Source: Candidatus Hydrogenedens sp. (GTDB taxonomy: Bacteria > Hydrogenedentota > Hydrogenedentia > Hydrogenedentales > Hydrogenedentaceae). From it: DNA of 64,000 bases. The position numbers and the translations under genes are program-made. Under the pieces are notes generated by a model. It was not told the DNA's origin. It saw nothing but the letters and a program-made list of their open reading frames with translations, and ran no database searches. Location of the stretch: contig JBMFRC010000003.1 in NCBI GenBank assembly GCA_049968235.1, positions 160,001 to 224,000 on the forward strand. Direction: 5' to 3'. Shown piece after piece: positions 6,045-50,284 of the stretch. Every line of letters begins with the position of its first letter. Within the stretch, counting starts at the first letter, position 1.

Positions 6045-7001
6045 ATGTATAAAAAACAAAAAGGTTTCACACTAATCGAATTACTGGTAGTCATCGCTAT
6101 CATCGGCATCTTAGCAGCCATCTTACTCCCCGCTTTAGCCCGTGCTCGAGAAGCAGCGCGTCGTTCTTCCTGCCAGAACAACCTGAAAGAAATGGGGCTG
6201 GTGTTCAAGATGTATGCAAATGAAGCCCCGGGGGAAAAATTTCCGCGCGTTCAGATGAGAGATTATCCTGGCACCACAATAAAACCGCAGTTTTCATTAG
6301 CACCTGATATAATGTCCATCTACCCGGAATATTTGAATGATGCGAAGATTCTTGTATGTCCTTCCGATACAGATAATAAAATCTTTTTCCGTGATGAATG
6401 TGTTTTCAATGACCCTACAGGACAACTGATAGCAACCAAATACCCGGATGCCCCTGCTTTTATTTACTGGCCCTTTGAACAGGCAGGGCACAGTTATTCC
6501 TATTTTGGTTGGGTATATGACAAATTTGATGAAGACCCAACAGACCCGGAAATCTCTGCAATTGCAAGTCAGATGGGTGTGCAGGTGCCGGCAGGAACAA
6601 AGGCACCTCGACAAATATTTGAGCATTGGGTCAATAAATTGGTTAACTGGTATCTTACAAACAATCAGACGTATTCCGCATGCCAGCCAGATGAAGACGG
6701 AACTGTAAGTCCCGGATTTGGAAATGCTGGAGGCTCCACAATATATCGTCTGCGGGAAGGGATTGAACGATTTCTTATTACAGATATTAATAATCCCGCA
6801 GAATCTTCAAAGGCACAAAGTTCCATATTTATCATGTTGGATAATTACAGTTCTTTAGCCAGTGAATTTAATCATATTCCCGGCGGGTCCAATGTATTAT
6901 TTATGGACGGACATGTTCAATTTATGCGTTATCCCTCAGAACCGCCTATGTTAGCCCGTTTTGCTATCATATTAGGTATCATCCAGAAGGGCGGTTCATA
7001 A
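6045..7001 (+). CDS. DUF1559 'H-X9-DG' protein with prepilin-type N-terminal cleavage/methylation domain (type II secretion pseudopilin-like)
   Basis: Prepilin leader plus hydrophobic helix '[26 protein letters not shown]'. C-terminal '[10 protein letters not shown]' (DG motif). RBS AAGGAG at -10. A close paralog lies at 30837-31808. Confidence 0.85.
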
Positions 7002-7115
7002 ATTCTGTAATTATCTGAACATTATCAAACAAAGAAAATAAGAAAAAGATCTTGTAGCACAGGCATTCCTCCCTGTGCTACTTTCTTTAAAGGAGATATC
7101 TATGTATAAAAAAAA

Positions 7116-7155
7116 AACCCCTTGAAAAAATACTGTTCCTATTCGTCAAGGGGTT
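7116..7155 (-). terminator. Rho-independent terminator for the minus-strand gene ending at 7161; possibly bidirectional
   Basis: Hairpin AACCCCTTGA-N20-TCAAGGGGTT. On the minus strand it is followed by a 10-nt U-run (plus-strand A-run at 7107-7117). Confidence 0.5.
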
Positions 7156-7160
7156 ATTAT

Positions 7161-7649
7161 TTACGCCAAAATATCTAATGAATGACTATTTTTTACTACC
7201 GCTGTTGGGGTTTCCGTTTTTACACTTTGTTCCACAACAGGTGGATTATCAGGTTTCTGTTGTTCTTTTACTTTCTCCACCTTTTGCGGTAAGAGTGCAT
7301 GATTATCGGAAAGAATCACATCAACCTCTAATGGTTTTTCTTCTTTGGGCATAACTAATTCACGCGGGACAAAAATAGAACCTGTCGGTATAATAGGTAC
7401 AACACCTAACCCGATGGGAATTTCTCCATCTTCATACCGGATAGAGGTTGATGCTTCGTTCTGACGGACTGCAGGTTCTTCTACTTTTTGTTCTTTTCCT
7501 ATCAGACCGTTTGTCGGTTTAACAATCCCTGTTATTATATTTTCCATCATAATGTTCATAAGCCTCATCCTTGAGTTTTCTACATATCCTTCATCTATTC
7601 TATCGGCAAAATTTATATAAACTTTAGTAAATTTTTTATAATTTCTCAT
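7161..7649 (-). CDS. Hypothetical Pro/Glu/Val-rich protein. The shorter start is chosen to avoid a ~100-nt overlap with the divergent PTS IIA gene.
   Basis: The ORF is closed by a good intrinsic terminator. I recognise no family. A longer ORF to 7835 exists, but it overlaps the start of 7729..8220. Confidence 0.35.
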   Translation of the reverse strand: MRNYKKFTKVYINFADRIDEGYVENSRMRLMNIMMENIITGIVKPTNGLIGKEQKVEEPAVRQNEASTSIRYEDGEIPIGLGVVPIIPTGSIFVPRELVMPKEEKPLEVDVILSDNHALLPQKVEKVKEQQKPDNPPVVEQSVKTETPTAVVKNSHSLDILA

Positions 7650-7728
7650 AATAATTGTTTCTGTTAAAACTTTTTTATCCAAATCGTTTATAATTGATGA
7701 AAAACAATATATCTGCTGGTGATTAGTT

Positions 7729-8220
7729 ATGTTTATAGATTTAAGGAAATATATAAAACCAGAGACAGTTTGTGTATATACTGCATCTCTTTCTAAACAT
7801 TCCATTATTGAAAAGATAGCGGACATTGTGTCCACCTGTAATGAGAATTACGCATCATTGAAGCTTTCTATTTACGAAGGATTGCAAGCACGGGAGATGT
7901 TAGGTTCAACCGCTTTAAGCCGTGGGCTTGCTCTTCCTCATTGTAGAGTTGAGTGCATTAGCAATTTCATTGCAGGGATACTCGTCTCTCCTGAAGGTGT
8001 TGCTTATGGTTCTCTCGACGGAAGATTAACTCATGTATTCTTTTTTATCATTGCTCCAAAAGAAAAAACGGATGAATATTTGGGCATCATGGCAGAAATT
8101 GGTGCTTTTCTTGGTAGGGAGGAAAATATAACACTGTTAGCAGAAAGTAAAAATAGCGAGGTCTTATATCAAAACTTTTTGAAATTCTGGGAGGAGTATG
8201 TTAGGAACATTAATCAATAA
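7729..8220 (+). CDS. ptsN: PTS EIIA type-2 (PtsN / nitrogen-regulatory IIA-like) domain protein
   Basis: Motif 'GLALPHCRVE' matches the GxAIPH(A/G)R phosphorylatable-His motif of fructose/mannitol-type EIIA and IIA-Ntr. 163 aa. Confidence 0.65.
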   Translation: MFIDLRKYIKPETVCVYTASLSKHSIIEKIADIVSTCNENYASLKLSIYEGLQAREMLGSTALSRGLALPHCRVECISNFIAGILVSPEGVAYGSLDGRLTHVFFFIIAPKEKTDEYLGIMAEIGAFLGREENITLLAESKNSEVLYQNFLKFWEEYVRNINQ

Positions 8221-9918: not shown

Positions 9919-10734
9919 TTATGTGTTTAGAGGAGGAAACTCGGGCTTTACAAGTTCCTGGCTTAATACCATTTCTAACATACCAAACTTTTCATAGCGG
10001 AATTGCTCTGCATAACTATAGCCTGGGACCTTTCCTTTCTCTGCTGTATAACTTTTCACAGCGTTTGCGATTATTTGATTTCTTGTATCCTTATCTACGT
10101 TTCTCATACCTGGTAAATCGACACCTAAAGTCTTCGCTTCTAACAATAGGGAGTCAAAGGTAAGTTCCATCTGAGTTTCATGAGCCAACAAGGACTCTAC
10201 TTTCTTATCTATACTATTTGTAATATCTACGAAGGTCAGTGCATCTTCCGGCTTTTTTGCAAACCAATATGCTTCCGAAACAGAATGAGGTGGATAGAGT
10301 CCCGGTGTACCAAAGTTAGGATTGCTACTAAATGTTATTGCTTCGTAGGTAGCCATTGCAGTAACTCTGTGGTCAGGATGGTCTTCTCCTTTAGCAAAGG
10401 GATCCCAACTTAAAACTATATTTGCCTTTACCTCTCTTATCATATCTATTATTATATTTCTTATGTGTTTCCTAGGCATATCCTCCAGTTCCCCATCTAT
10501 AAAATTACCGAACCTTACTTCTTTCAATCCAAGTATTTTACCTGCCTCTATTGCTTCCTGTTTTGACAATGTAACAATTTCACTTTCCCTCAAAGTATAT
10601 GTCCCCTTTCTATTATCCGTTAGTATGAGTTCATAAACGGGAAATCCATATTCTTTTATCCACCGATATGCTGTTCCCGCACACATAAACTCCATATCGT
10701 CCCCATGAGCGACAACAACCAGAACCGTTTTCAT
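9919..10734 (-). CDS. PIG-L/LmbE-family N-acetylglucosaminyl deacetylase
   Basis: Motifs 'VVVAHGDDMEFMCAGT' and 'HPDHRVTAMAT' are characteristic of the zinc-dependent PIG-L deacetylase family. Confidence 0.75.
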   Translation of the reverse strand: MKTVLVVVAHGDDMEFMCAGTAYRWIKEYGFPVYELILTDNRKGTYTLRESEIVTLSKQEAIEAGKILGLKEVRFGNFIDGELEDMPRKHIRNIIIDMIREVKANIVLSWDPFAKGEDHPDHRVTAMATYEAITFSSNPNFGTPGLYPPHSVSEAYWFAKKPEDALTFVDITNSIDKKVESLLAHETQMELTFDSLLLEAKTLGVDLPGMRNVDKDTRNQIIANAVKSYTAEKGKVPGYSYAEQFRYEKFGMLEMVLSQELVKPEFPPLNT

Positions 10735-10769: not shown

Positions 10770-10927
10770 ACTTTTTCACAGTCTATGTTAATAAAGTAAG
10801 TAAAACTTATATACTCTTTACAGTATGGATATATAAAGGTTTATAAATAAGAGACTTAAATAATAAAGTGTTAAATATAAGAAACAATACAGGAAAAATA
10901 ATTTTATTCACATGTTTTCCACAAATA

Positions 10928-12034
10928 CTATAATTTCACGGGCATTATAATATTTATATATCTCTCATCTTCCTCTGCCTCTGGAGTTAATGGCTTTATA
11001 ACACAGGGACTGCTTCCGTCTTTTACAGACATTACCAATCTATCTGTTGTTATATGGTCAACAACATCTACCAAATACTCAATATTAAATCCTGTCTTAA
11101 CTTCATCTCCATCGTATTCTACTTCTAACATATCAGAAAATTCACCTACTTCTGGATTTTGAACTTCTATATCTATACGCCCCTTTTGAACACGCACCTT
11201 TACGGACATTGTTTTCATTGCTTCTGCTCTCTTTAAAACAGATTTCCAATCTTCTGTTTTTATTATTATATGTTTACTATAATCCTTAGGTATAACAACT
11301 TCATAATTTGGAAACGTTCCCTCTATCAAACTACTTGTCAATCTCATTTTATTAAATACAAAAGATACCCTTGTCTCACCCACAAAAATCTTTATATCAC
11401 CTGTTCCATCCATTTGATTCATCAGTTCTTTTATTGTCCTCTCCGGTATTGTTATACGAACATTTCTCTTAACAGGAACACATTCCTTTTCTCTCCTGAG
11501 ACTCATTCTTTTTCCATCTGTCGCTACCACAGTAAGATTGCCCTCATTTATTTCAAATAGAACACCTGTTAATGCATACCTTGCTTCTTCTGTGCATACC
11601 GCAAATGCCACCTTACGGAACATATCTATCAACAATGATTCCGAAATAATTATTGGTTCTACATCATCTACAAACATTACAGGCGGAAATTCTTCCGGAG
11701 TCATCGATATATACTTTACTTCCGTCCTACCACTTTTAACTATTACTTGATTTTCTCCTGAGGACCTTATAATCACATCACCCTTAGGTAAATTTGAAAG
11801 TAAATTTGAAAACAAATGAGCCCTTAATGTAATTCTTCCTTCTTCTTCTATCTCACATTCCTCCAACTCCTGCTCAATGGTCATTCGAAGGTCTGTACTT
11901 GTTAATTTTAATAAACCATTTTCCGCAGTTATTAAAATAGAAGATAAAATAGGTAAAGATGATTTTGCAGGAACTGCATTTCTTACTTTTGATAATGCTT
12001 CATTTAATTTTTCCTGACTTACTGTAATTTTCAT
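10928..12034 (-). CDS. dnaN: DNA polymerase III beta subunit (sliding clamp)
   Basis: N-terminus 'MKITVSQEKLNEALSKVRNAVPAKSSLPILSSILI' and the ~368-aa three-domain clamp organisation. Confidence 0.9.
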   Translation of the reverse strand: MKITVSQEKLNEALSKVRNAVPAKSSLPILSSILITAENGLLKLTSTDLRMTIEQELEECEIEEEGRITLRAHLFSNLLSNLPKGDVIIRSSGENQVIVKSGRTEVKYISMTPEEFPPVMFVDDVEPIIISESLLIDMFRKVAFAVCTEEARYALTGVLFEINEGNLTVVATDGKRMSLRREKECVPVKRNVRITIPERTIKELMNQMDGTGDIKIFVGETRVSFVFNKMRLTSSLIEGTFPNYEVVIPKDYSKHIIIKTEDWKSVLKRAEAMKTMSVKVRVQKGRIDIEVQNPEVGEFSDMLEVEYDGDEVKTGFNIEYLVDVVDHITTDRLVMSVKDGSSPCVIKPLTPEAEEDERYINIIMPVKL

Positions 12035-41500: not shown

Positions 41501-42562
41501 TTATGGGGTGAAATCTATGGATGGGGTCAATGAAAGTATCCAATTTTTTATTAATTTTATAGCATTTTCTACATCTGTCAATGAGACAATTTCTACGGGT
41601 GTATGCATATAACGATTGGGAATACCAATAAGTCCTGTGGCAACGCCTTTACGACTTAATTGAATTGCATTTGCATCGGTTCCTGTGGCTCGCGGTGCAG
41701 GCATAAGTTGATAAGGGATTTTCTGATTTTGGGCTATTTTTATTAAACCTTCAAGCACTTTTGGATTGATATTAGGTCCTTTATCAAGAATAGGACCTTT
41801 TCCCAATTTAATTTCAGCATATCGGGCTTTGTCAATTCCCGGATGGTCAGTTGCCCAGCCGACATCAACTGCTATGGCGGTATGGGGTTCGCATGCAAAT
41901 GCACTTGTAATAGCGCCTCGTAAGCCAATTTCCTCTTGAACCGTAGTAACGCAATACACAGCTACTTTCAGTTTATTTTTTGGCAGACTGCGTATGGCTT
42001 CAAGACAGACGAAAGCACCAATACGGTCGTCCAATCCACGCGCAGAAATCAAGTTGTTTTTGAGTTCGCGAACAGAAACATCTAAAGTAATCGGGTCGGC
42101 TACAGATACTATTTTTTCTGCCTCTTTCTTGCTCGTAACTCCAATGTCAATCCATAATTCATATAGTTCGGGAGTTTTTTCTCGTTCTTTCTCCGGCGTT
42201 AGATGAATGGGCTTTCTGCCAATAACACCATATACAGGACCTTTTGCTGAGTGTACTACTACTCTTTGTCCAGGAAGCACAGCGGTATCTACACCGCCGA
42301 TAGATACTCCATGAATAAAACCATTATCATCGATTGAATTAACCATCAGTCCAATCTCATCTACATGTCCACAAAGCATAACTCGCAAAGGTGCGTTTTT
42401 ATTGATTACAAAAAATTGGTTTCCATGAACATCTTTATAGATGTAATCGGCATAGCCGGTCATATATTCTTTACATTTTTCCTGAATTTTGACTTCAAAT
42501 CCCGAAGGACTTGGAGTACTAAGTAAATCATAGAGAAAAGATTTTGATGCAGTTGATAACAT
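41501..42562 (-). CDS. M42-family metallopeptidase (glutamyl aminopeptidase / FrvX-CelM-like)
   Basis: 'VMLCGHVDEIGLMV', 'GRGLDDRIGAFVCLEAI', 'AVDVGWATDHPG'. Start taken at 'MLSTASKSFLYDLL', because the longer ORF adds an unlikely TM segment. Confidence 0.7.
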   Translation of the reverse strand: MLSTASKSFLYDLLSTPSPSGFEVKIQEKCKEYMTGYADYIYKDVHGNQFFVINKNAPLRVMLCGHVDEIGLMVNSIDDNGFIHGVSIGGVDTAVLPGQRVVVHSAKGPVYGVIGRKPIHLTPEKEREKTPELYELWIDIGVTSKKEAEKIVSVADPITLDVSVRELKNNLISARGLDDRIGAFVCLEAIRSLPKNKLKVAVYCVTTVQEEIGLRGAITSAFACEPHTAIAVDVGWATDHPGIDKARYAEIKLGKGPILDKGPNINPKVLEGLIKIAQNQKIPYQLMPAPRATGTDANAIQLSRKGVATGLIGIPNRYMHTPVEIVSLTDVENAIKLIKNWILSLTPSIDFTP

Positions 42563-42925
42563 GGCAGTAATCCTTTGTTCTTTGCTATAAACTAACATAC
42601 AGGGAACAAGCAGAACAAGTGAAAAGGATACAATGAAGGCTAAAAAGCAGATATAAAAAATTTCTATTAACAATTAATTGTTGACAAAAATATAAAATAA
42701 ACAAAATACTACCCCTATTCTTAAATAACAAGGACCTGCAGAACAAAAATGTTTTATATCTAACAATCTATAATTTTTTTATCACCTCGTAATTTATTAT
42801 ACCTCAATTCTCAAAATTTTGCTTGAAAATTTAACTTTTTCTGTAAAATAAATCCTTATATTCCATAGATATATACAAATAGACGAAAATTTTGTTACAA
42901 AAATTTAAATTTTTTAAAATTTTAT

Positions 42926-42954
42926 TTGACAAAACGGGTTAATTCGTGTTAAAT
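42926..42954 (+). promoter_or_regulatory. Candidate sigma70-type promoter for the M23 peptidase-bactofilin operon
   Basis: -35 TTGACA (42926-42931), 17-nt spacer, -10 TTAAAT (42949-42954), within a 370-bp AT-rich intergenic region. Confidence 0.35.
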
Positions 42955-43045
42955 TTGAATTTACCTTAAAATTGAAAATTGAATTAATAGATATATATAA
43001 ATTGAGGAAAGGGAATAAACCTTTTTCTATAAGGAGCCGAATCGC

Positions 43046-44059
43046 GTGAAATCGTGGACAATAATCAGGCTTCCTAAAAAGGAAGGTGAGAAAATCCATG
43101 TAAGGTTATCGCCGGGCGTATTTGGTTTTATTTTATTTTTAATTGCGGTGCTTACATTCTTTACTTCCTTTTTATATACCCGCCAGCATATTATTTCTAC
43201 ACATCTGTCGGAATTAAAGCAAATAAACCGCAATTTGGAATATGCAACGGGTAATGGAAATACTGGTCAGGCAGTTGCAAATGGCGTTTCTGAAGAGGAA
43301 TTGCGACGCATAGAGAATCAACTTCGTTCAGAATATGAATCCACAATAGCGGTGATTACATCACAATTGAATGAATTGCTGGAAATAGAGACCAAAGCAC
43401 GGCAGGCAACGGGTCTAACTCCGAAATACAAGACGCCGGCGGTGGATACTACAAACAGGAACGAGGGGGGAAAAGGAGGTCCAGCAGGGAAACCTTTTAA
43501 CACGGAGTTTCAAGTAAATCGTAACACCATAAGCGTTCCCACCTTTTTACATAGATCCAATCGACTTTCGGCAGACTTAATATTACAGGAAATTGCGTTA
43601 CGTAAAATAGGACTGCAGGATTTGCTCAAAGGGGTAGAGGCAAAAAATGTTAAGATTGAGCGTACACCAAATAGTTGGCCTCTTGCGAGACGGATGGGTA
43701 AGTTGACGTCCTATTTTGGATATCGTATAGACCCATTCACGCGGAGAATAAAACATCATGATGGATTGGACATTTCAGCACCTTACGGCACGCAGGTAAT
43801 ATCCGCTGGTAAAGGGACGGTAAGTTTTGCGGGGCGTGAAGGGGATTATGGGAAGATGGTTATTATTGACCATGGCGATGGTATGCAGACTGCATATGCT
43901 CATCTATCACAGATTCATGTTACTGTGGGTCAAAAAGTGGAAAAAGGACAGGTTATCGGTGCAGTAGGGAGCACAGGTAGAAGTACAGGTCCGCATTTAC
44001 ATTTTGAAGTCCGAATTGGAAAGCAATCCGTAAATCCGTTAAAATACTTGAGTAGATAA
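43046..44059 (+). CDS. M23-family (LytM) peptidoglycan DD-metalloendopeptidase with N-terminal membrane anchor and coiled coil (GTG start)
   Basis: 'HHDGLDISAPYGTQVISAGKGTVSFAG' and 'GPHLHFEVRIG' (HxxxD / HxH zinc motifs). GGAG RBS. Confidence 0.8.
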   Translation: MKSWTIIRLPKKEGEKIHVRLSPGVFGFILFLIAVLTFFTSFLYTRQHIISTHLSELKQINRNLEYATGNGNTGQAVANGVSEEELRRIENQLRSEYESTIAVITSQLNELLEIETKARQATGLTPKYKTPAVDTTNRNEGGKGGPAGKPFNTEFQVNRNTISVPTFLHRSNRLSADLILQEIALRKIGLQDLLKGVEAKNVKIERTPNSWPLARRMGKLTSYFGYRIDPFTRRIKHHDGLDISAPYGTQVISAGKGTVSFAGREGDYGKMVIIDHGDGMQTAYAHLSQIHVTVGQKVEKGQVIGAVGSTGRSTGPHLHFEVRIGKQSVNPLKYLSR

Positions 44060-44127
44060 CAATTGTTGGCTTTTTAATAAATCGGTCTTTTATAAAAACC
44101 AAGTGAATTAAAGAGTAGGAAAGTATT

Positions 44128-44505
44128 ATGTTAGATGTAAGAAAGAAAGGTCCTGGTGAAATGGATGTAAAGAGTGTAATTGGTCCGGGCACAGTAGTAA
44201 ATGGTGATATAACATCAGAAGGCTCACTCCGAATAGAAGGAGAGGTCATCGGTAAGATCACCAGTAAAGATACTGTTGTAATTCATGATAACGGAAAAGT
44301 TAAAGCAGAGATTCGGGGACAGCAGGTTATCGTAAGCGGTGAAGTCCAAGGAAATATCTTTGCAACGGAGCGATTGGAAATTACCGCTTCCGGTAGAGTT
44401 ATTGGGGATATTACTGCTCCCCGCGTTAGTATTGCAGAAGGAGTCGTGTTTGAAGGAAAATGTACCATGAAACCCCCTTCATCTCCGAAATCTCAGCAGA
44501 AGTAA
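44128..44505 (+). CDS. Bactofilin (CcmA-like, DUF583) cytoskeletal protein
   Basis: Repeating beta-helix pattern 'VIGPGTVVNGDITSEGSLRIEGEVIGKITSKDTVVIHDNGKVKAEIRGQQVIVSGEVQGNI'. Confidence 0.85.
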   Translation: MLDVRKKGPGEMDVKSVIGPGTVVNGDITSEGSLRIEGEVIGKITSKDTVVIHDNGKVKAEIRGQQVIVSGEVQGNIFATERLEITASGRVIGDITAPRVSIAEGVVFEGKCTMKPPSSPKSQQK

Positions 44506-44538
44506 AAGAGAGTATTCAAGTCTGATAGGTCGGATGTA

Positions 44539-45015
44539 TCAGGTACTATTATCTTTCAATTTCATTTTTTTTAGTTTCCTCCAGAGTGTGTTTCTGCCAA
44601 TACCTAATCTGCGTGCTGTTTCTGAACGATTAAAATGACATTCTGCCAGAGTTTTTAGTATGGTTTCGGTTTCCAGTTCCATGAGCGTTACGGATTTTTT
44701 TTCGAGCATAGTTTTACCCGTTTTCCATTGTCCAAGGGCTCTTTGTATCATCATGGCTACTTCATCCGGCTGGAAAGGAATAAAAATATATCCATATACT
44801 CCTTGTCTCATTAATTCTACCGCCTGAGGTATTTGTTGTGCTGAAGCAAGAACGAGCGTGGGTTGATTTTCTGCATGTCGCAATGCAAACGAATAATCAT
44901 CGGTAATCAATACATCAGCGGAATCGTTTACAATAACGTATCCATATGCCTCAATGAGCATTTTCAGAGTAAACTCGTTGATAGGTTGTTGAATAACTAA
45001 TTTTATACGAGCCAT
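44539..45015 (-). CDS. Fis-type HTH transcriptional regulator with a degenerate (pseudo-)receiver domain
   Basis: C-terminal 'ILKTLAECHFNRSETARRLGIGRNTLWRKLKK' matches the Fis/NtrC HTH. The N-terminal ~110 aa are REC-like but lack an obvious phospho-acceptor Asp. Confidence 0.55.
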   Translation of the reverse strand: MARIKLVIQQPINEFTLKMLIEAYGYVIVNDSADVLITDDYSFALRHAENQPTLVLASAQQIPQAVELMRQGVYGYIFIPFQPDEVAMMIQRALGQWKTGKTMLEKKSVTLMELETETILKTLAECHFNRSETARRLGIGRNTLWRKLKKMKLKDNST

Positions 45016-45102
45016 GTAAACAATCCTTTTACTTTCCTTTTTTTATACATAGTATAATACATTCCAAAAAGAATTAATATAGAAGGGAACTATCGGAAAT
45101 TT

Positions 45103-46503
45103 ATGTCTCAATCCGTTTATGAAAATACTACTGCCAAACATTTACTATGGGTAGAAGCCATTCGTGAAGTGTTCTATATGTCCTGGCCTATTGTGTTAGG
45201 TTCCCTTTCCTATACGGTTATGGAATTCTGTGATAAATGGATGGTCGCTCAATTAGGAACGGTATCTCTGGCGGCGGTCGGTTCTGCAGGAATATGGTCC
45301 TATACGATGAGCACATTACTGTTGGGTATTGTCGGTTGCACAGGGACATTCGTGGCACAGTCGTATGGTAAAGAAGTGTGGAAAGATTGTTCGAGGTATA
45401 CATGGCAGGGAATTTATCTGGCATTGTTCTCTATCCTGTTGGCAGGGGTATTGTTCGTTTTTTCAGAGTTGTTGTTTTCATGGATGAAGCACAGTCCCGA
45501 AGTAACCCGCCAAGAACTAATTTATTTCCGTATCCGATTACTGGGCTATTTCCCGATGGCTATGGGTTCCGCTTTAGCATCATTTTTCCCTTCTATCAAC
45601 AAACCTCGTGTTCCCATGTATTCTGCCATTATAGGAAATATCTTAAATTTAATATTAAACTATATTCTGATTTTTGGTAAATTAGGATTTCCACGGCTGG
45701 AAATAGCTGGCGCCAGTTATGCTACTGTAATCTCGCAATGGACGCAGACATTAATTCTATTCTTTCTCTTTCTGAAACCGAAATTACATCAAAAATTTGG
45801 GACACGGACATATCATCATTTTGATTTACGACGGATGAAGGAATTAATACGAATTGGGATACCTGCGGGTCTATCTATGTTTTTAGATATTTGTAATTGG
45901 AGTATATTTACCAGTTTCATCGTAGGTAGGTTTGGAGATGTTTCCCTTGCATCCCACAATGTAGCCATCAGTTTTATGCACTTGTGTTTTATGCCTGCAG
46001 TTGCTGTGAGTATTGGTATATCTGCCATTGTAGGGCAGTGGTTGGGAAGGCGTGAAGTGCAGATAGCCAAACAACGGGTTTATGTAGCACTGGCGCTTTG
46101 TATGGGGTATATGGTAACAATGGGTATTATTCTTGCCGTTTTTGGGGGTAAACTTATTTACCATATATTTAGTAAAGACCCGGAGGTTGTCCGTTTTGGA
46201 CATCGACTATTAATTTTGGCTGCTTTATTTCAAGCATTTGATGCCGTTAATATTATTTGTTTAGGTGCCTTGCGGGGTGCTGGCGATACCCGCTGGGTTA
46301 TGTGGGCAATGGTTATCAATGCATATTGCCTTTTCCTCCCTCTGGCAATTATTATGGGCTTCATTTTGGGTTGGGGTGCTTTTGGTTCCTGGATTTCTGC
46401 TACTATTTACATTGCTGTTTTAAGTATGACACTCATATATCGTTTCCTTTCTGAAAAGTGGACGAAAATTATTATTTTTTCGGAACAAGTGCCAACTCAA
46501 TAA
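45103..46503 (+). CDS. MATE-family efflux transporter
   Basis: 12 TM helices, and an N-terminus 'EVFYMSWPIVLGSLSYTVMEFCDKWMVAQLG' typical of NorM-like MATE proteins. Confidence 0.8.
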   Translation: MSQSVYENTTAKHLLWVEAIREVFYMSWPIVLGSLSYTVMEFCDKWMVAQLGTVSLAAVGSAGIWSYTMSTLLLGIVGCTGTFVAQSYGKEVWKDCSRYTWQGIYLALFSILLAGVLFVFSELLFSWMKHSPEVTRQELIYFRIRLLGYFPMAMGSALASFFPSINKPRVPMYSAIIGNILNLILNYILIFGKLGFPRLEIAGASYATVISQWTQTLILFFLFLKPKLHQKFGTRTYHHFDLRRMKELIRIGIPAGLSMFLDICNWSIFTSFIVGRFGDVSLASHNVAISFMHLCFMPAVAVSIGISAIVGQWLGRREVQIAKQRVYVALALCMGYMVTMGIILAVFGGKLIYHIFSKDPEVVRFGHRLLILAALFQAFDAVNIICLGALRGAGDTRWVMWAMVINAYCLFLPLAIIMGFILGWGAFGSWISATIYIAVLSMTLIYRFLSEKWTKIIIFSEQVPTQ

Positions 46504-46633
46504 AACTTCTATTTAAGATTTGCTTTTTATTTTATTGTCGGTTTTCAAATCTATGTTAAATGTGGTATTATGAAATTTAATGCAAATGTGGAATGTTCAG
46601 AAAAGATAAAACCATTATTAGAAGGAGCAATAT

Positions 46634-47320
46634 ATGAATTACAAAAGGACACTGTCAATAATGTTCACAATGATTATTTTTGTGTTCTCAATTATGATGT
46701 TTCTTAAAGCAGAGGACTCAAAATCTGCAGAGAAAGGCGATTGGATTTCATTATTTGATGGGAAATCATTACAGGGTTGGGTTCAATTTATTCCTGACCC
46801 CAATGCAGACCCTTCAAAAACATGGATGATAAAAGACGGAGTTATTCTTTGTACCGGGAAGCCAGCCGGTTATATTCGCACAGACAAAAAATTTGGGAAT
46901 TATCAGTTACAATTGGAATGGCGTTGGGCAGGCTCTCCCGGAAATAGTGGCGTCCTGCTTCATGTTCAGGATAAAGATGAAGTCTGGCCTAAATCTATCG
47001 AGGCACAACTCATGCATAAGAATGCGGGAGATTTCTGGGTAATTGGGGGTACAGATTTTGAGGAGCATCAGAAACACGCAAGCAAAGATGATGACCGTCG
47101 TGTGCCAAAGCGGGAGAAATGTAGTGAAAAGAAGCCTGGCGAGTGGAATCAATATGATATTTGGTGCGATGGGGATACCATTCGTGTTTTTGTAAATGGT
47201 GTATTACAAAATGAAGCACATAAATGCACCGTAACAGAGGGTTATATTGGATTACAAAGCGAAGGGGCCCCTATTGAATTTCGTAATATCAAATTAAGAA
47301 AGTTAGAACCCAAAAAGTAA
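46634..47320 (+). CDS. DUF1080 (3-keto-disaccharide hydrolase / LamG-like) secreted protein
   Basis: 'DGKSLQGW', 'WMIKDGVILCTG', 'GYIRTDKKFGNYQLQLEWRW', 'SGVLLHV' and C-terminal 'IEFRNIKLR'. Confidence 0.8.
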   Translation: MNYKRTLSIMFTMIIFVFSIMMFLKAEDSKSAEKGDWISLFDGKSLQGWVQFIPDPNADPSKTWMIKDGVILCTGKPAGYIRTDKKFGNYQLQLEWRWAGSPGNSGVLLHVQDKDEVWPKSIEAQLMHKNAGDFWVIGGTDFEEHQKHASKDDDRRVPKREKCSEKKPGEWNQYDIWCDGDTIRVFVNGVLQNEAHKCTVTEGYIGLQSEGAPIEFRNIKLRKLEPKK

Positions 47321-47503
47321 CCATTCAGAAAGTAATTTTTATCAATTTTGTTTTGTTGTATAATTCTAAAAGTAAAGATATAACTCATTTCTAATAAGCA
47401 AGTTGTGTAAGTTAAAATGGATGAAAATAATTTTTAACTTAAAAAAGAGAAACGAAATGAGTATTCAATGTAATATACTTATAGGAGTAAAAAATAACAT
47501 ATA

Positions 47504-47908
47504 TTGAAGGAAAACACAATGAAAACTTTCTTTTCTTTCCATTGGATATTTACTTCCCTGTTATTACTATGTATTATGGTATTTTTAACAGGATGCCCCA
47601 AACCGGATTTGCAGGTATCCGCATTATCACATCATTTTGGCGGGGATATATATACCGGTACTATAGAGACGGACTGGGAGTTTCAAATTTGGAACGCCGG
47701 TGACAAAAACTCTACCCTATTCTATAAAGTGGAACCTACAAGAAATTGGATTCTTGTAAATCCAGATTCCGGAAAAATTGCTCAATCTGATAAACCGGTA
47801 AATATTTCTGTTCATATCAACCGTAGTAACAATCAAAAGGGATTGCCTTCTTTTGCCACAGGATATATTAAAGTTTCAGGAGGTGGGAAAAAAAAACAAT
47901 TACAGTAA
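47504..47908 (+). CDS. Lipoprotein (ORF ends immediately after an A9 run)
   Basis: Signal plus lipobox 'LLLLCIMVFLTGC'. The stop lies 10 nt after AAAAAAAAA (47888-47896). Confidence 0.6.
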   Translation: MKENTMKTFFSFHWIFTSLLLLCIMVFLTGCPKPDLQVSALSHHFGGDIYTGTIETDWEFQIWNAGDKNSTLFYKVEPTRNWILVNPDSGKIAQSDKPVNISVHINRSNNQKGLPSFATGYIKVSGGGKKKQLQ

Positions 47909-48573
47909 CAACAGTTCCTAATTTCTATACTGAAGTATTTGGTGGATTTTATAATCGACCTTTTGATTTGTCCAATACCACATTGGTGTTTATACCGGAC
48001 AGTAATAGCCTTCATTTCTATAAGCAGGGAATAAAGAAAAATGTCCAACAATTTCCTCAACAAACACCAGATATAGGACAACCTGCCTTTTTTTCAATTA
48101 GGGACCCATTTTATATAAAATCCACAATAGCCCCGATACCTTTTTATGGAGTTAAATATGATGATATTTACATTTCCAGTAAAGGATTTATCTCTTTCGG
48201 AGCAGAGGGATTGGAACCTACAAGTGTGGGCAGACATTTTGCATATCCACAAATTTCCCTTTTACCTCTGGATGTATTGAAAGCAGATGAAGATGGCGGT
48301 GTTATTTACACTATTCTACCTCAAAAGTTAGTTATTTCATGGATAAACATTCCTCTTGCACAAAATCCGACAATCGGTGAAGATGGTAAGGCATATAAAA
48401 ACAATATTCAGGTTGAGTTGTTCTATGATGGGAAGATTCAGATAACTTATCTTAGCATTGATCCGAAACAATTTGTCGCTGTTGTTGGTTTATCTTGTGG
48501 TGGGGGTGATGGAACAAACCCTCCTGTGCAGGATTTTGTTATCAGTGATTTATCAAGTGCTCCGGAAATATAA
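47872..48573 (+). CDS. Hypothetical protein in the -1 frame relative to the upstream lipoprotein ORF; probably its C-terminal continuation
   Basis: The frame is open from 47872 through the A9 run. It has no ATG/GTG start or RBS of its own; the annotated ORF starts with TTG at 47968. Confidence 0.5.
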   Translation, partial: SFRRWEKKTITVTTVPNFYTEVFGGFYNRPFDLSNTTLVFIPDSNSLHFYKQGIKKNVQQFPQQTPDIGQPAFFSIRDPFYIKSTIAPIPFYGVKYDDIYISSKGFISFGAEGLEPTSVGRHFAYPQISLLPLDVLKADEDGGVIYTILPQKLVISWINIPLAQNPTIGEDGKAYKNNIQVELFYDGKIQITYLSIDPKQFVAVVGLSCGGGDGTNPPVQDFVISDLSSAPEI

Positions 48574-48585
48574 ATTTTCTAAAAT

Positions 48586-48626
48586 AAAACGCTCCGAACA
48601 CCTGAGTTGGGAGCGTTTTGTTTTCG
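48586..48626. terminator. Bidirectional rho-independent terminator between the convergent lipoprotein gene and rpsU
   Basis: Hairpin AAAACGCTCC-N13-GGAGCGTTTT followed by GTTTTCG. Confidence 0.55.
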
Positions 48627-48662
48627 ATTATCTCTTGTGCTTGTACTAAATGGAACAAATTT

Positions 48663-48866
48663 CTATTGAACTGTTTCGGATTCCATAATAGAACGGGATA
48701 CCGCTTTGATTAGCCTTCTACGGCGGCGTTCCGATGGTTTTTCATAATGGCGGAGTTCACGAAGTCTCTGCATAATACCATCTTTATTGCACTTTTTCTT
48801 AAAACGCCTCATAGCCTTATCAAAAGACTCTTCCGGCTTAATTCGAACCTTTGTCAAAGAAATCAA
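48663..48866 (-). CDS. rpsU: 30S ribosomal protein S21
   Basis: 'VRIKPEESFDKAMRRFKKKCNKDGIMQRLRELRHYEKPSERRRRR' matches the S21 consensus. Confidence 0.8.
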   Translation of the reverse strand: MISLTKVRIKPEESFDKAMRRFKKKCNKDGIMQRLRELRHYEKPSERRRRRLIKAVSRSIMESETVQ

Positions 48867-49090
48867 CCTCCTTTCAATATAAATTTATGAGTTGAAAAGG
48901 ATTTTTATTATATAACAAATAGGGGTAATATTTCAATAGATAATCTATTTTTATTTTTACTTCTATTTATGCTAAAATAATAAATCAATGTAGTGGAGAT
49001 GGGGTTCTCCTAAATCGCCGATGTGGCTGATGACTCCTACCTGAAATATCCTCAATGTAACTCTCTTTATTTTTATGAAAGGAATATGAC

Positions 49091-50284
49091 ATGGAACATC
49101 TATATCTATCTGCATCAATCTGGTTATTTCTCGCCCTAACCTCCGCTATCATTGCATATTACTTGAAGGTTTCTATTGCTTTGATAGAGATTTGTGTAGG
49201 TATTATCGCAGGATATATAGCGACCCATTTTCTACAGACCGATTTGCTTAATAATAATGAAGAATGGTTAAAATTTCTTGCAGGTAGTGGAGCCATTTTT
49301 CTTACTTTCCTTGCAGGTGCTGAATTAGAGCCTACTGTGATTAAAAATAAATGGAAGGAGGTTCTTCTTATCGGCTTGATTGGATTTTTTTCTCCATTTG
49401 TCGGTTGTTCATTGATTGCTCATTTTTTGTTAGGGTGGGACCCGAGAGCCAGTTTGCTATGTGGTGTAGCCCTATCAACTACTTCAATGGCTGTGGTTTA
49501 TGCGGTGATGATTGACACAGGATTAAATGTTACAGAATTTGGGAAGGGCATATTAGGTTCTTGTTTTATCAATGATATCGGGACCGTTCTCGCTTTAGGA
49601 ATCATCTTTGCACCGTTTACCTACAAGACCTTTATCTTTATTACTATAACAATTATTTATCTTGTTCTTTTCCCGTTTTTTACCAACCATCTGACGAAGG
49701 TATATGGGAATCGAACTGCTGCAATTCGAACCAAATGGATTTCATTCACACTGTTCGGATTAGGTGCATTAGCACTATGGTCGGGCAATGAAGCAGTCTT
49801 GCCTGCCTATATAGCGGGTATGGTCCTTGCAGAATTCAGTCAAAGAAATCCTATATGGTTACGAAGATTACGAACTTTGACCATCGGATTTCTTACCCCA
49901 TTTTATTTTTTAAGGGCAGGCACACTTGTATCCGTTCCTGCATTAATTTCTGCACCATTTCTTATCGTTGCCCTATTAGGGGCAAAAGTAGTTTCCAAGA
50001 TATTTGGACTATACCCTTTTATCATACAATTTCGGAAAGAAAAAAATGAACGATGGTATTACACCTTGATGATGTCCACAGGACTCACCTTCGGAACTAT
50101 CTCTGCTCTATTTGGATATTCTCATAATATTATCAATACAGAACAATATTCCTATATAGTAATTGCTGTTATTGCAAGTGCTGTAATTCCAACTATGTTT
50201 GCATCCTACCTCTTCACACCGAGACATCTTTTATCTCAGAAAATTCATGTCTCAAAATCTATACATGAATTATCTGAGGAATAG
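49091..50284 (+). CDS. Cation:proton antiporter (Na+/H+ exchanger, CPA-type) membrane protein
   Basis: About 11-12 TM helices with an N-terminal exchanger-family pattern ('LKVSIALIEICVGIIAGY'). No RCK domain. Confidence 0.65.
   Translation: MEHLYLSASIWLFLALTSAIIAYYLKVSIALIEICVGIIAGYIATHFLQTDLLNNNEEWLKFLAGSGAIFLTFLAGAELEPTVIKNKWKEVLLIGLIGFFSPFVGCSLIAHFLLGWDPRASLLCGVALSTTSMAVVYAVMIDTGLNVTEFGKGILGSCFINDIGTVLALGIIFAPFTYKTFIFITITIIYLVLFPFFTNHLTKVYGNRTAAIRTKWISFTLFGLGALALWSGNEAVLPAYIAGMVLAEFSQRNPIWLRRLRTLTIGFLTPFYFLRAGTLVSVPALISAPFLIVALLGAKVVSKIFGLYPFIIQFRKEKNERWYYTLMMSTGLTFGTISALFGYSHNIINTEQYSYIVIAVIASAVIPTMFASYLFTPRHLLSQKIHVSKSIHELSEE

What the first reader, a model, noticed from the sequence alone, without database searches (positions are those of the whole stretch)
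47872..47970. A9 homopolymer separates a lipoprotein ORF from a downstream ORF that lacks a start codon; consistent with -1 or transcriptional slippage
The lipoprotein ORF 47504..47908 ends '...VSGGGKKKQLQ*' straight after AAAAAAAAA (47888-47896). The downstream ORF has no ATG or GTG start and no RBS. Its reading frame, which is -1 relative to the lipoprotein frame, is open back through the A-run to 47872. A one-nucleotide shift on the A-run would join them into a ~335-aa lipoprotein ('...GGGKKK|TITVTTVPNFYTEVFGGFYNRPFDLSNTTLVFIPD...'). A9 tracts are classic sites for ribosomal -1 frameshifting and for RNA-polymerase slippage. The alternatives are a genuine frameshift mutation or a homopolymer sequencing error.
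Basis: seen in the sequence. Interest (0 to 1): 0.5.

Follow-up and report, generated by a model that had tools for sequence, protein, structure and literature searches.

The report
One-base deletion splits a lipoprotein gene
The run of nine A's is real, but it is the scar of a recent one-base deletion (a lost G) that broke a normally single lipoprotein gene in this strain, so this is an ordinary strain-level frameshift mutation and not an evolved recoding signal.

Summary
A9 lies at 47888-47896. A 129-aa lipoprotein ORF (47519-47908) stops 9 nt after it, and the -1 frame is open from 47872 to 48573.

The programmed-slippage reading does not hold.
- All 14 orthologous loci (Ca. Hydrogenedens/Hydrogenedentota MAGs and metagenomes) encode one uninterrupted ~350-aa protein. 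At the junction they read AAR-GAR-AAA-GTN, with no long A-run.
- A sister MAG (GCA_049971155.1) is 99.9% identical over 35.9 kb and carries the intact 351-aa gene. It reads GGGAAAGAAAAAACA where the window reads GGGAAAAAAAAACA.

So A9 is what remains after deleting the single G from A3-G-A6. The frameshift mutation created the "slippery" run.

A second MAG (GCA_049969095.1), with a different SNP background, carries the same deletion. Every other homopolymer compared agrees between assemblies, including an A10. A real population variant is therefore more likely than an assembly error.

The break falls at the start of the last beta-strand of the N-terminal BACON/Ig-like domain, and the downstream piece has no signal peptide. 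Neither fragment looks functional alone.

An A9 run sits at the known threshold for RNA-polymerase slippage, so some incidental rescue by A-insertion is plausible but untested.

Verdict: ordinary strain-level frameshift allele, low interest.

The parts
47519..48573 (+). Whole disrupted gene. It is a BACON-domain lipoprotein, 351 aa when the frame is restored, orthologous to single ~350-aa ORFs in Hydrogenedentota.
   Evidence: gap-free alignment to 16 homologues. (intact 351-aa allele P0019 in a sister MAG). (conserved position, convergent with rpsU).
47519..47908 (+). 5' fragment (ORF1, 129 aa). It holds the signal peptide with lipobox LTGC and most of a BACON/Ig-like domain, and ends KKKQLQ*.
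   Evidence: The exact product is deposited twice in GenBank as 'BACON domain-containing protein'. Pfam BACON_2 scores 29.4 bits against a cut-off of 25, spanning residues 64-133 of the fused protein, which is across the break.
47888..47896 (+). A9 run. This is the deletion scar: the sister strain reads AAAGAAAAAA (A3-G-A6) and the window lacks the G.
   Evidence: the only indel in a 7.3-kb alignment. (same A9 in a second MAG). (orthologues read AAR GAR AAA GTN).
47872..48573 (+). 3' fragment, in the -1 frame. It holds the last beta-strand of the BACON domain plus a ~220-aa C-terminal domain with no family assignment. It has no signal peptide and no ATG.
47878..47885 (+). Shine-Dalgarno-like AGGAGGTG inside the Ser-Gly-Gly-Gly codons, ending 4 nt before a slippery A AAA AAA heptamer. 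It is also present in the intact allele, so it is most likely incidental.
   Evidence: Sequence. L015 has the same bases. Orthologues use other Gly codons.
48586..48624 (.). Hairpin AAAACGCTCC...GGAGCGTTTT followed by GTTTT, lying between the convergent lipoprotein gene and rpsU. It is probably a shared terminator. No terminator or promoter lies between the two gene fragments.
   Evidence: Read from the sequence. The consensus scan found no promoter-like site on the + strand and no terminator-like site between the fragments. It also missed this hairpin, whose loop is too long for the scan.

Best explanation
This is a recent, real one-base deletion in one gene. The G of ...GGG AAA GAA AAA ACA... 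was lost from a conserved BACON-domain lipoprotein gene of a Candidatus Hydrogenedens population.

Losing the G fused A3 and A6 into A9 and shifted the frame. Translation now stops 3 codons later, giving a 129-aa lipoprotein stub that lacks the last strand of its Ig-like domain. The remaining 225 codons lie in the -1 frame with no start codon or signal peptide of their own.

The allele segregates in the population: two of three near-identical MAGs carry it and one is intact. It is a loss-of-function or strongly hypomorphic variant, not a recoding device.

Shown: the deletion, its distribution among assemblies, the single-ORF state of all orthologues, and the position of the break inside a domain.

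Inferred: that the deletion exists in the cells rather than only in the assemblies, that the fragments are non-functional, and that any full-length protein would come only from incidental slippage on the new A9.
For: - Orthologues are single 345-359-aa ORFs collinear across the junction. All 14 orthologous loci read AAR GAR AAA GTN there, and no A-run in the gene exceeds 7.
- Sister MAG GCA_049971155.1 encodes an intact 351-aa protein (P0019) that differs from the frame-restored window protein only by KEK versus KKK.
- At the DNA level, L015 versus window 42519-49838 shows 7 SNPs and exactly one indel, the G.
- A second MAG, GCA_049969095.1 (L016), carries the same A9 and the identical truncated product, on a background with 2 different synonymous SNPs.
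- A three-way SNP mosaic shows three distinct consensus genotypes.
- Assembly quality is good. Over 35.9 kb and 11.5 kb of comparison there are 28 and 10 SNPs, and only one other one-base indel, which is intergenic at 10848. All other homopolymers agree, including A10 at 7108-7117 and several T8 runs. The window is tiled by long intact ORFs.
- The break falls at the start of beta-strand 124-132 of the N-terminal Ig-like domain and inside the Pfam BACON_2 match 64-133.
Against: - No read-level data could be examined.
- The downstream frame shows no further decay. At 0.1% divergence none is expected, so this neither supports nor contradicts inactivation.
- The new A9 could let some full-length protein be made, so 'loss of function' may be incomplete.
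Confidence: 0.75

Rival explanations
1. Assembly or sequencing artefact. The cells carry the intact A3-G-A6 gene, and the G was dropped by a systematic error in an A-rich context in two assemblies.
For: - Low-complexity A-rich contexts are error-prone on some platforms (general knowledge).
- The only other indel between the MAGs has the same flavour, AAATAA versus AAAAA at 10848.
- No reads could be inspected.
Against: - The same deletion appears in two assemblies with different SNP backgrounds.
- All true homopolymers, including A10, A8 and several T8 runs, agree between assemblies.
- There is only one coding indel in about 47 kb compared, and no other broken genes are evident.
- At 10848 it is the window that keeps the interrupting base, so the window's assembly has no consistent tendency to drop such bases.
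Confidence: 0.12
2. Incidental ('adventitious') rescue. The deletion is real, but RNA-polymerase slippage on the template T9 (A9 in the mRNA) adds one A to a fraction of transcripts. Alternatively, ribosomes slip -1 on A AAA AAA. Either way some full-length KKK-variant lipoprotein is made, and the allele is a hypomorph rather than a null.
For: - Either event gives the same in-frame product...GGGKKKTITV....
- Bacterial RNAP slippage is reported as efficient on runs of 9 A or T. Thermus thermophilus dnaX uses such a run (PMC5009743).
- A11 in C. rodentium tssM1 gives 20-25% frame restoration (PMC4256274).
- A human DMD delG that turned A4GA5 into A9 gave about 15% full-length protein through A10 transcripts (PMC12946587).
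Against: - In reporter assays E. coli RNAP gave little or no rescue on poly(A) and preferred poly(T) (PMC6260861).
- There is no stimulatory RNA structure (z = -0.19).
- The SD-like element ends 4 nt before the heptamer. From my own knowledge, the dnaX-type spacing that favours -1 shifts is about 10 nt.
- Nothing is known about RNAP fidelity in Hydrogenedentota, and no expression data exist.
Confidence: 0.35
3. Programmed recoding or phase variation. The A-run is a selected device, either a regulated frameshift or a slipped-strand ON/OFF switch for a surface lipoprotein.
For: - The gene encodes a probable surface-exposed lipoprotein, a class often phase-varied (general knowledge).
- The run has the length and frame arrangement such devices use.
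- The broken allele is present in 2 of 3 MAGs.
Against: - The run is absent from all 14 orthologous loci.
- The ON allele in the sister strain is A3-G-A6, not a length variant A10 or A7.
- No A10 allele exists in the 15-billion-protein collection.
- No stimulators are present.
- The divergence between ON and OFF genomes is only about 0.1%, so the run is very young.
Confidence: 0.04

Closest known systems
Strain-level frameshift (pseudogene-forming) alleles caused by single-base deletions
   Same: An intact, collinear gene exists in all orthologues and in a 99.9%-identical sister genome. A single missing base explains the break, and the break falls inside a folded domain.
   Different: The deleted base was the only interruption of an A-rich stretch, so the mutation itself made a 9-base homopolymer that might permit leaky decoding.
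DMD c.2281delG (A4GA5 to A9) rescued by transcriptional slippage (PMC12946587)
   Same: Nearly the same mutational event: deletion of the G that interrupts an A-run creates A9 and a frameshift that one extra A in the mRNA would correct.
   Different: That case is human RNA polymerase II with demonstrated A10 transcripts and about 15% protein. Here the polymerase is bacterial and there is no expression evidence.
Transcriptional-slippage genes: Thermus thermophilus dnaX (run of 9), Citrobacter rodentium tssM1 (A11), Shigella mxiE/mxiA/spa13/spa33 (PMC5009743, PMC4256274)
   Same: There is an A-run in the mRNA just upstream of a premature stop, with the rest of the protein in another frame that added A's can reach.
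   Different: In those genes both products, or their ratio, are shown to be functional. Here the run is absent from all relatives and is only as old as a 0.1% strain split.
dnaX-type programmed -1 ribosomal frameshifting
   Same: A slippery A AAA AAA heptamer lies in the zero frame, and an SD-like sequence lies upstream.
   Different: There is no downstream stem-loop. The SD-like element is 4 nt away instead of about 10, and it derives from Gly codons. The arrangement is not conserved.
Endosymbiont poly(A) frameshifts rescued by polymerase infidelity (Buchnera, Blochmannia; cited in PMC5009743)
   Same: A frameshift within a poly(A) tract of an otherwise intact gene may be tolerated because slippage restores some product.
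   Different: Those occur in extremely AT-rich, reduced genomes. From my own knowledge some are retained across species. This one is in a free-living 38.7% GC lineage with an intact allele co-existing.

Membership tests
Frameshift mutation / strain-level disrupted gene | Orthologues encode one uninterrupted protein collinear across the break | tested here: met
   16 homologues align without a gap at the junction. All 14 orthologous loci are single ORFs.
Frameshift mutation / strain-level disrupted gene | The break is explained by an indel relative to a close relative | tested here: met
   In L015 versus the window, the single missing G is the only indel in 7.3 kb.
Frameshift mutation / strain-level disrupted gene | The variant is reproducible and not a one-off consensus error | tested here: met
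   The same A9 is in GCA_049969095.1 on a different SNP background. Other homopolymers agree between assemblies.
Frameshift mutation / strain-level disrupted gene | Read-level support for the deletion | not testable with these tools
   No raw reads are available.
Programmed transcriptional slippage | Homopolymeric A/T run of about 9 or more, placed so that added bases join the frames | tested here: met
   The run is A9, and one extra A gives the 351-aa fusion.
Programmed transcriptional slippage | The run and the split frame are conserved among relatives | tested here: not met
   Both are absent from all 14 orthologous loci and from the 99.9%-identical sister MAG.
Programmed transcriptional slippage | Heterogeneous mRNA (A9/A10...) and two protein products | not testable with these tools
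   This needs RNA sequencing or proteomics.
Programmed -1 ribosomal frameshifting (dnaX type) | X XXY YYZ slippery heptamer in the zero frame | tested here: met
   A AAA AAA lies at 47890-47896 with zero-frame codons AAA AAA.
Programmed -1 ribosomal frameshifting (dnaX type) | Downstream stimulatory stem-loop or pseudoknot | tested here: not met
   The fold of 47870-47990 gives z = -0.19 against shuffles, with no hairpin 5-9 nt after the run.
Programmed -1 ribosomal frameshifting (dnaX type) | Conservation of the frameshift arrangement | tested here: not met
Phase-variable contingency locus (slipped-strand mispairing) | Tract-length polymorphism (N versus N+/-1) among close strains | tested here: not met
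   The alternative allele is A3-G-A6, not A10 or A8. The A10 product is not in the protein collection. Only three genomes were sampled.
BACON-domain lipoprotein | Pfam BACON-type domain above the curated cut-off | tested here: met
   BACON_2 (PF19190) scores 29.4 bits against a cut-off of 25, E = 7.8e-7, residues 64-133. The Ig-like fold is seen in the model, and its PDB matches are PapD/ASH/MSP-like.
BACON-domain lipoprotein | Signal peptide with a lipobox cysteine | tested here: met
   The signal reads MKTFFSFHWIFTSLLLLCIMVFLTGC. The Cys column is present in all 14 full-length homologues. No dedicated predictor was run.

The most novel reading that the evidence does not exclude
The deletion is 'self-mitigating'. 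By removing the one G that interrupted an A-rich stretch, it created an A9 tract on which the Hydrogenedens RNA polymerase or ribosome slips often enough to give a useful low level of full-length lipoprotein. The allele would then be a naturally segregating, tuned-down expression variant. This could be favoured if the lipoprotein is, for example, a phage or predator target. It might also be the first step toward a contingency locus.
Probability: 0.1. Interest if true: 0.4.

Novelty: already known. Interest (0 to 1): 0.15.

Why it matters
- **For annotation.** The two GenBank CDSs in this MAG (a 129-aa 'BACON domain-containing protein' and a 196-aa 'hypothetical protein') are halves of one gene. 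They should be treated as a disrupted gene, not as two proteins or as a recoding event.
- **For recoding screens.** A homopolymer at a frame break can be the product of the frameshift mutation rather than a signal for bypassing it. A comparison with a near-identical strain settled the matter at once.
- **For biology.** At most this documents a segregating loss-of-function or hypomorphic allele of a lineage-restricted surface lipoprotein in an uncultured Hydrogenedens population.

Tried and rejected
- **Source contig look-up.** Exact look-up of the downstream product P0011 found no contig. The window's own contig is not in the position index, so read or sample metadata could not be traced.
- **Paper search.** A search for the assembly accessions found nothing. 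The sequencing platform and habitat remain unknown.
- **NCBIfam.** It gave no family for the intact protein.
- **Fold search.** Foldseek against PDB matched only generic Ig-like (PapD/ASH/MSP) folds for the N-terminal domain and gave no informative match for the C-terminal domain. The model has a mean pLDDT of only 70.
- **Separate genes, rejected.** I considered two independently initiated genes. There is no start or RBS near the 5' end of the second frame, no signal peptide, the break is inside a domain, and all relatives have one ORF.
- **Miscounted homopolymer (A10/A8), rejected.** The sister allele is A3-G-A6.
- **Designed SD-like stimulator, rejected.** The internal AGGAGGTG is present in the intact allele, arises from Gly codons, is absent in orthologues and is wrongly spaced.
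- **Database limits.** The metagenome and genome scans were each limited to one, so I could not run a DNA-pattern search for A9/A10 variants in public metagenomes.

Full report
**1. The observation**

The window reads ...TCA GGA GGT GGG AAA AAA AAA CAA TTA CAG TAA..., with nine A's at 47888-47896.

- The upstream ORF runs from ATG 47519, which is preceded by AAGGA (ORF listing extends it to TTG 47504), to TAA 47906-47908.
- It encodes MKTFFSFHWIFTSLLLLCIMVFLTGC..., a lipoprotein-type signal with a lipobox, and ends VSGGGKKKQLQ.
- The frame one base back is open from 47872 (after TAA 47869-47871) to 48573.
- Inserting one A gives a 351-aa protein, ...GGGKKKTITVTTVPNFYTEVFGG...

Two details in the finding need correcting.
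- The fusion is 351 aa, not ~335.
- The downstream frame has no ATG, but it does contain in-frame TTG (47968, 47983) and GTG (47986). None has an obvious ribosome-binding site, and all lie well inside conserved sequence.

An A-run of 9 or more is not improbable here. About 1.0 is expected per 64 kb at 30.5% A, and two are present.

**2. Relatives**

A search of 5.8 billion proteins with the fused sequence returned only 16 hits. The named ones come from Candidatus Hydrogenedens or Hydrogenedentota MAGs. Fourteen are full-length proteins of 345-359 aa that align across the junction without a gap, with consensus SGGGKEKVITVTTVPN.

Fourteen orthologous loci were fetched from genome and metagenome collections.
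- All carry a single ORF.
- At the junction their DNA reads AAR GAR AAA GTN. No A-run in the gene is longer than 7.
- All 14 keep the conserved convergent arrangement with rpsU. The closer relatives also keep the upstream PF06439 and MatE genes.

The frame break and the run are therefore not conserved features of this gene.

**3. The decisive comparison**

The exact-sequence cluster look-up returned four GenBank proteins from three MAGs:
- the 129-aa stub, deposited twice (MGC8737715.1 and MGC8846980.1);
- two downstream pieces of 196 aa and 184 aa;
- an intact 351-aa 'BACON domain-containing protein' (MGC9052361.1, P0019).

P0019 differs from my frame-restored protein at one residue, KEK instead of KKK.

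Its contig (GCA_049971155.1, JBMFLO010000007.1; locus L015) aligns to window 42519-49838 at 99.89% identity, with 7 substitutions and exactly one indel:
- L015 reads GGGAAAGAAAAAACAAT.
- The window reads GGGAAAAAAAAACAAT.

The A9 run is A3-G-A6 minus its G. The mutation that shifted the frame is also the one that created the homopolymer.

**4. Real variant or artefact?**

The second MAG carrying the stub (GCA_049969095.1, contig JBMFPN010000521.1; L016) has the same A9. It differs from the window at two synonymous sites.

More of both MAGs was fetched and compared with the window.

| Compared MAG | Length compared | SNPs | One-base indels |
|---|---|---|---|
| GCA_049971155.1 | 35.9 kb | 28 | 2 (the G; a T at 10848, intergenic, AAATAA vs AAAAA) |
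| GCA_049969095.1 | 11.5 kb | 10 | 0 |

- All true homopolymers in the compared regions have the same length in the assemblies. These include A10 at 7108-7117 and several T8 runs.
- The three consensus sequences form a mosaic of shared SNPs, so they are three distinct genotypes.
- The window is tiled with long intact ORFs.

These facts favour a genuine segregating deletion. Without reads, a shared context-specific error cannot be fully excluded, and I put it at about 0.12.

**5. Consequences for the protein**

- Pfam BACON_2 matches residues 64-133 of the fused protein, above its curated cut-off. The match spans the break at residues 126-128.
- The AlphaFold model (mean pLDDT 70) places strands at 113-121 and 124-132 as the closing hairpin of the N-terminal Ig-like domain. 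PDB matches are generic PapD/ASH/MSP-type Ig folds.
- The stub therefore lacks the last strand of its only domain.
- The downstream piece lacks a signal peptide and a credible start.
- The ~220-aa C-terminal domain, with an invariant GLSCG.G motif, has no Pfam or NCBIfam family.

Neither fragment is likely to function alone.

**6. Recoding signals**

The zero frame does present a slippery A AAA AAA heptamer, and AGGAGGTG (47878-47885) lies just upstream.
- That SD-like element ends 4 nt before the heptamer. From my own knowledge, dnaX-type stimulation uses a spacing of about 10 nt.
- It comes from Ser-Gly-Gly-Gly codons, is present in the intact allele, and is absent from orthologues.
- There is no downstream RNA structure beyond shuffled controls (z = -0.19).
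- No promoter-like site on the + strand and no terminator-like site lies between the fragments.
- A hairpin at 48586-48624 follows the whole gene (read from the sequence).

**7. Could the new A9 leak?**

The literature says a run of 9 A or T is where bacterial RNA-polymerase slippage becomes efficient.
- Thermus thermophilus dnaX exploits such a run (PMC5009743).
- A11 in Citrobacter rodentium tssM1 restores the frame in 20-25% of products (PMC4256274).
- A human DMD delG that converted A4GA5 to A9 gave about 15% full-length dystrophin through A10 transcripts (PMC12946587). That is an almost identical mutational event.
- Against this, reporter work found E. coli RNAP rescued poly(A) frameshifts poorly and needed at least 8 A's for any detectable signal (PMC6260861).

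Incidental partial rescue is plausible, at about 0.35, but untested. It would be a by-product, not a programme.

**8. Verdict**

The two ORFs are one gene.

The programmed-slippage interpretation is not supported. The twist is that the A-run is the consequence of the mutation.

This is a known, ordinary kind of event: a strain-level disrupted gene. Interest is low (0.15).

The most novel reading not excluded is a self-mitigating hypomorphic allele maintained by slippage, with probability about 0.1 and interest about 0.4 if true.

Noticed in passing
window 10848 (intergenic, between ORFs 9919-10734 and 10928-12034, both on the minus strand): This is the only other indel between the window and the sister MAG GCA_049971155.1 in 35.9 kb. 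The window reads AAATAA and the sister reads AAAAA. It is the same type of event as at the A9 site (loss of the single base interrupting an A-run), but here the window keeps the base.
   Followed up: partly
window 7108-7117: An A10 run, the longest homopolymer in the window, lies in the intergenic gap between ORFs 6045-7001 (+) and 7161-7835 (-). Its length is identical in the sister MAG, which supports homopolymer accuracy in both assemblies. A C/T SNP lies nearby at 7085.
   Followed up: partly
window 9460-48507, compared with L015-L021: SNPs among the three near-identical MAGs form a mosaic. GCA_049969095.1 shares some alleles with the window and others with GCA_049971155.1. This suggests recombination within the population or chimeric strain consensus in the MAGs.
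   Followed up: partly
window 47897-48573 (C-terminal ~220 aa of the restored protein): This conserved domain has an invariant GLSCG.G motif near the C-terminus and no Pfam or NCBIfam family. Only 16 homologues were found among 5.8 billion proteins, and all named ones are Hydrogenedens/Hydrogenedentota. It looks like a lineage-restricted domain of unknown function.
   Followed up: partly
L003 (CAZJTZ010000010.1): One orthologous locus, 66% identical with conserved rpsU synteny, sits in a MAG labelled 'uncultured Nitrospirales bacterium'. All other named hits are Hydrogenedentota. This may be a taxonomic mislabel or a binning error.
   Followed up: no
window 47878-47885: A perfect 8-nt Shine-Dalgarno-like sequence, AGGAGGTG, lies inside the coding sequence (Ser-Gly-Gly-Gly codons) directly before the A-run. 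It is specific to this species, since orthologues use other Gly codons. It could cause ribosome pausing, but it is also present in the intact allele.
   Followed up: partly
window 48586-48624: A long hairpin, AAAACGCTCC...GGAGCGTTTT with a T-rich tail, lies between the convergent lipoprotein gene and rpsU. It is probably a bidirectional terminator. The consensus scan missed it because the loop is long.
   Followed up: no
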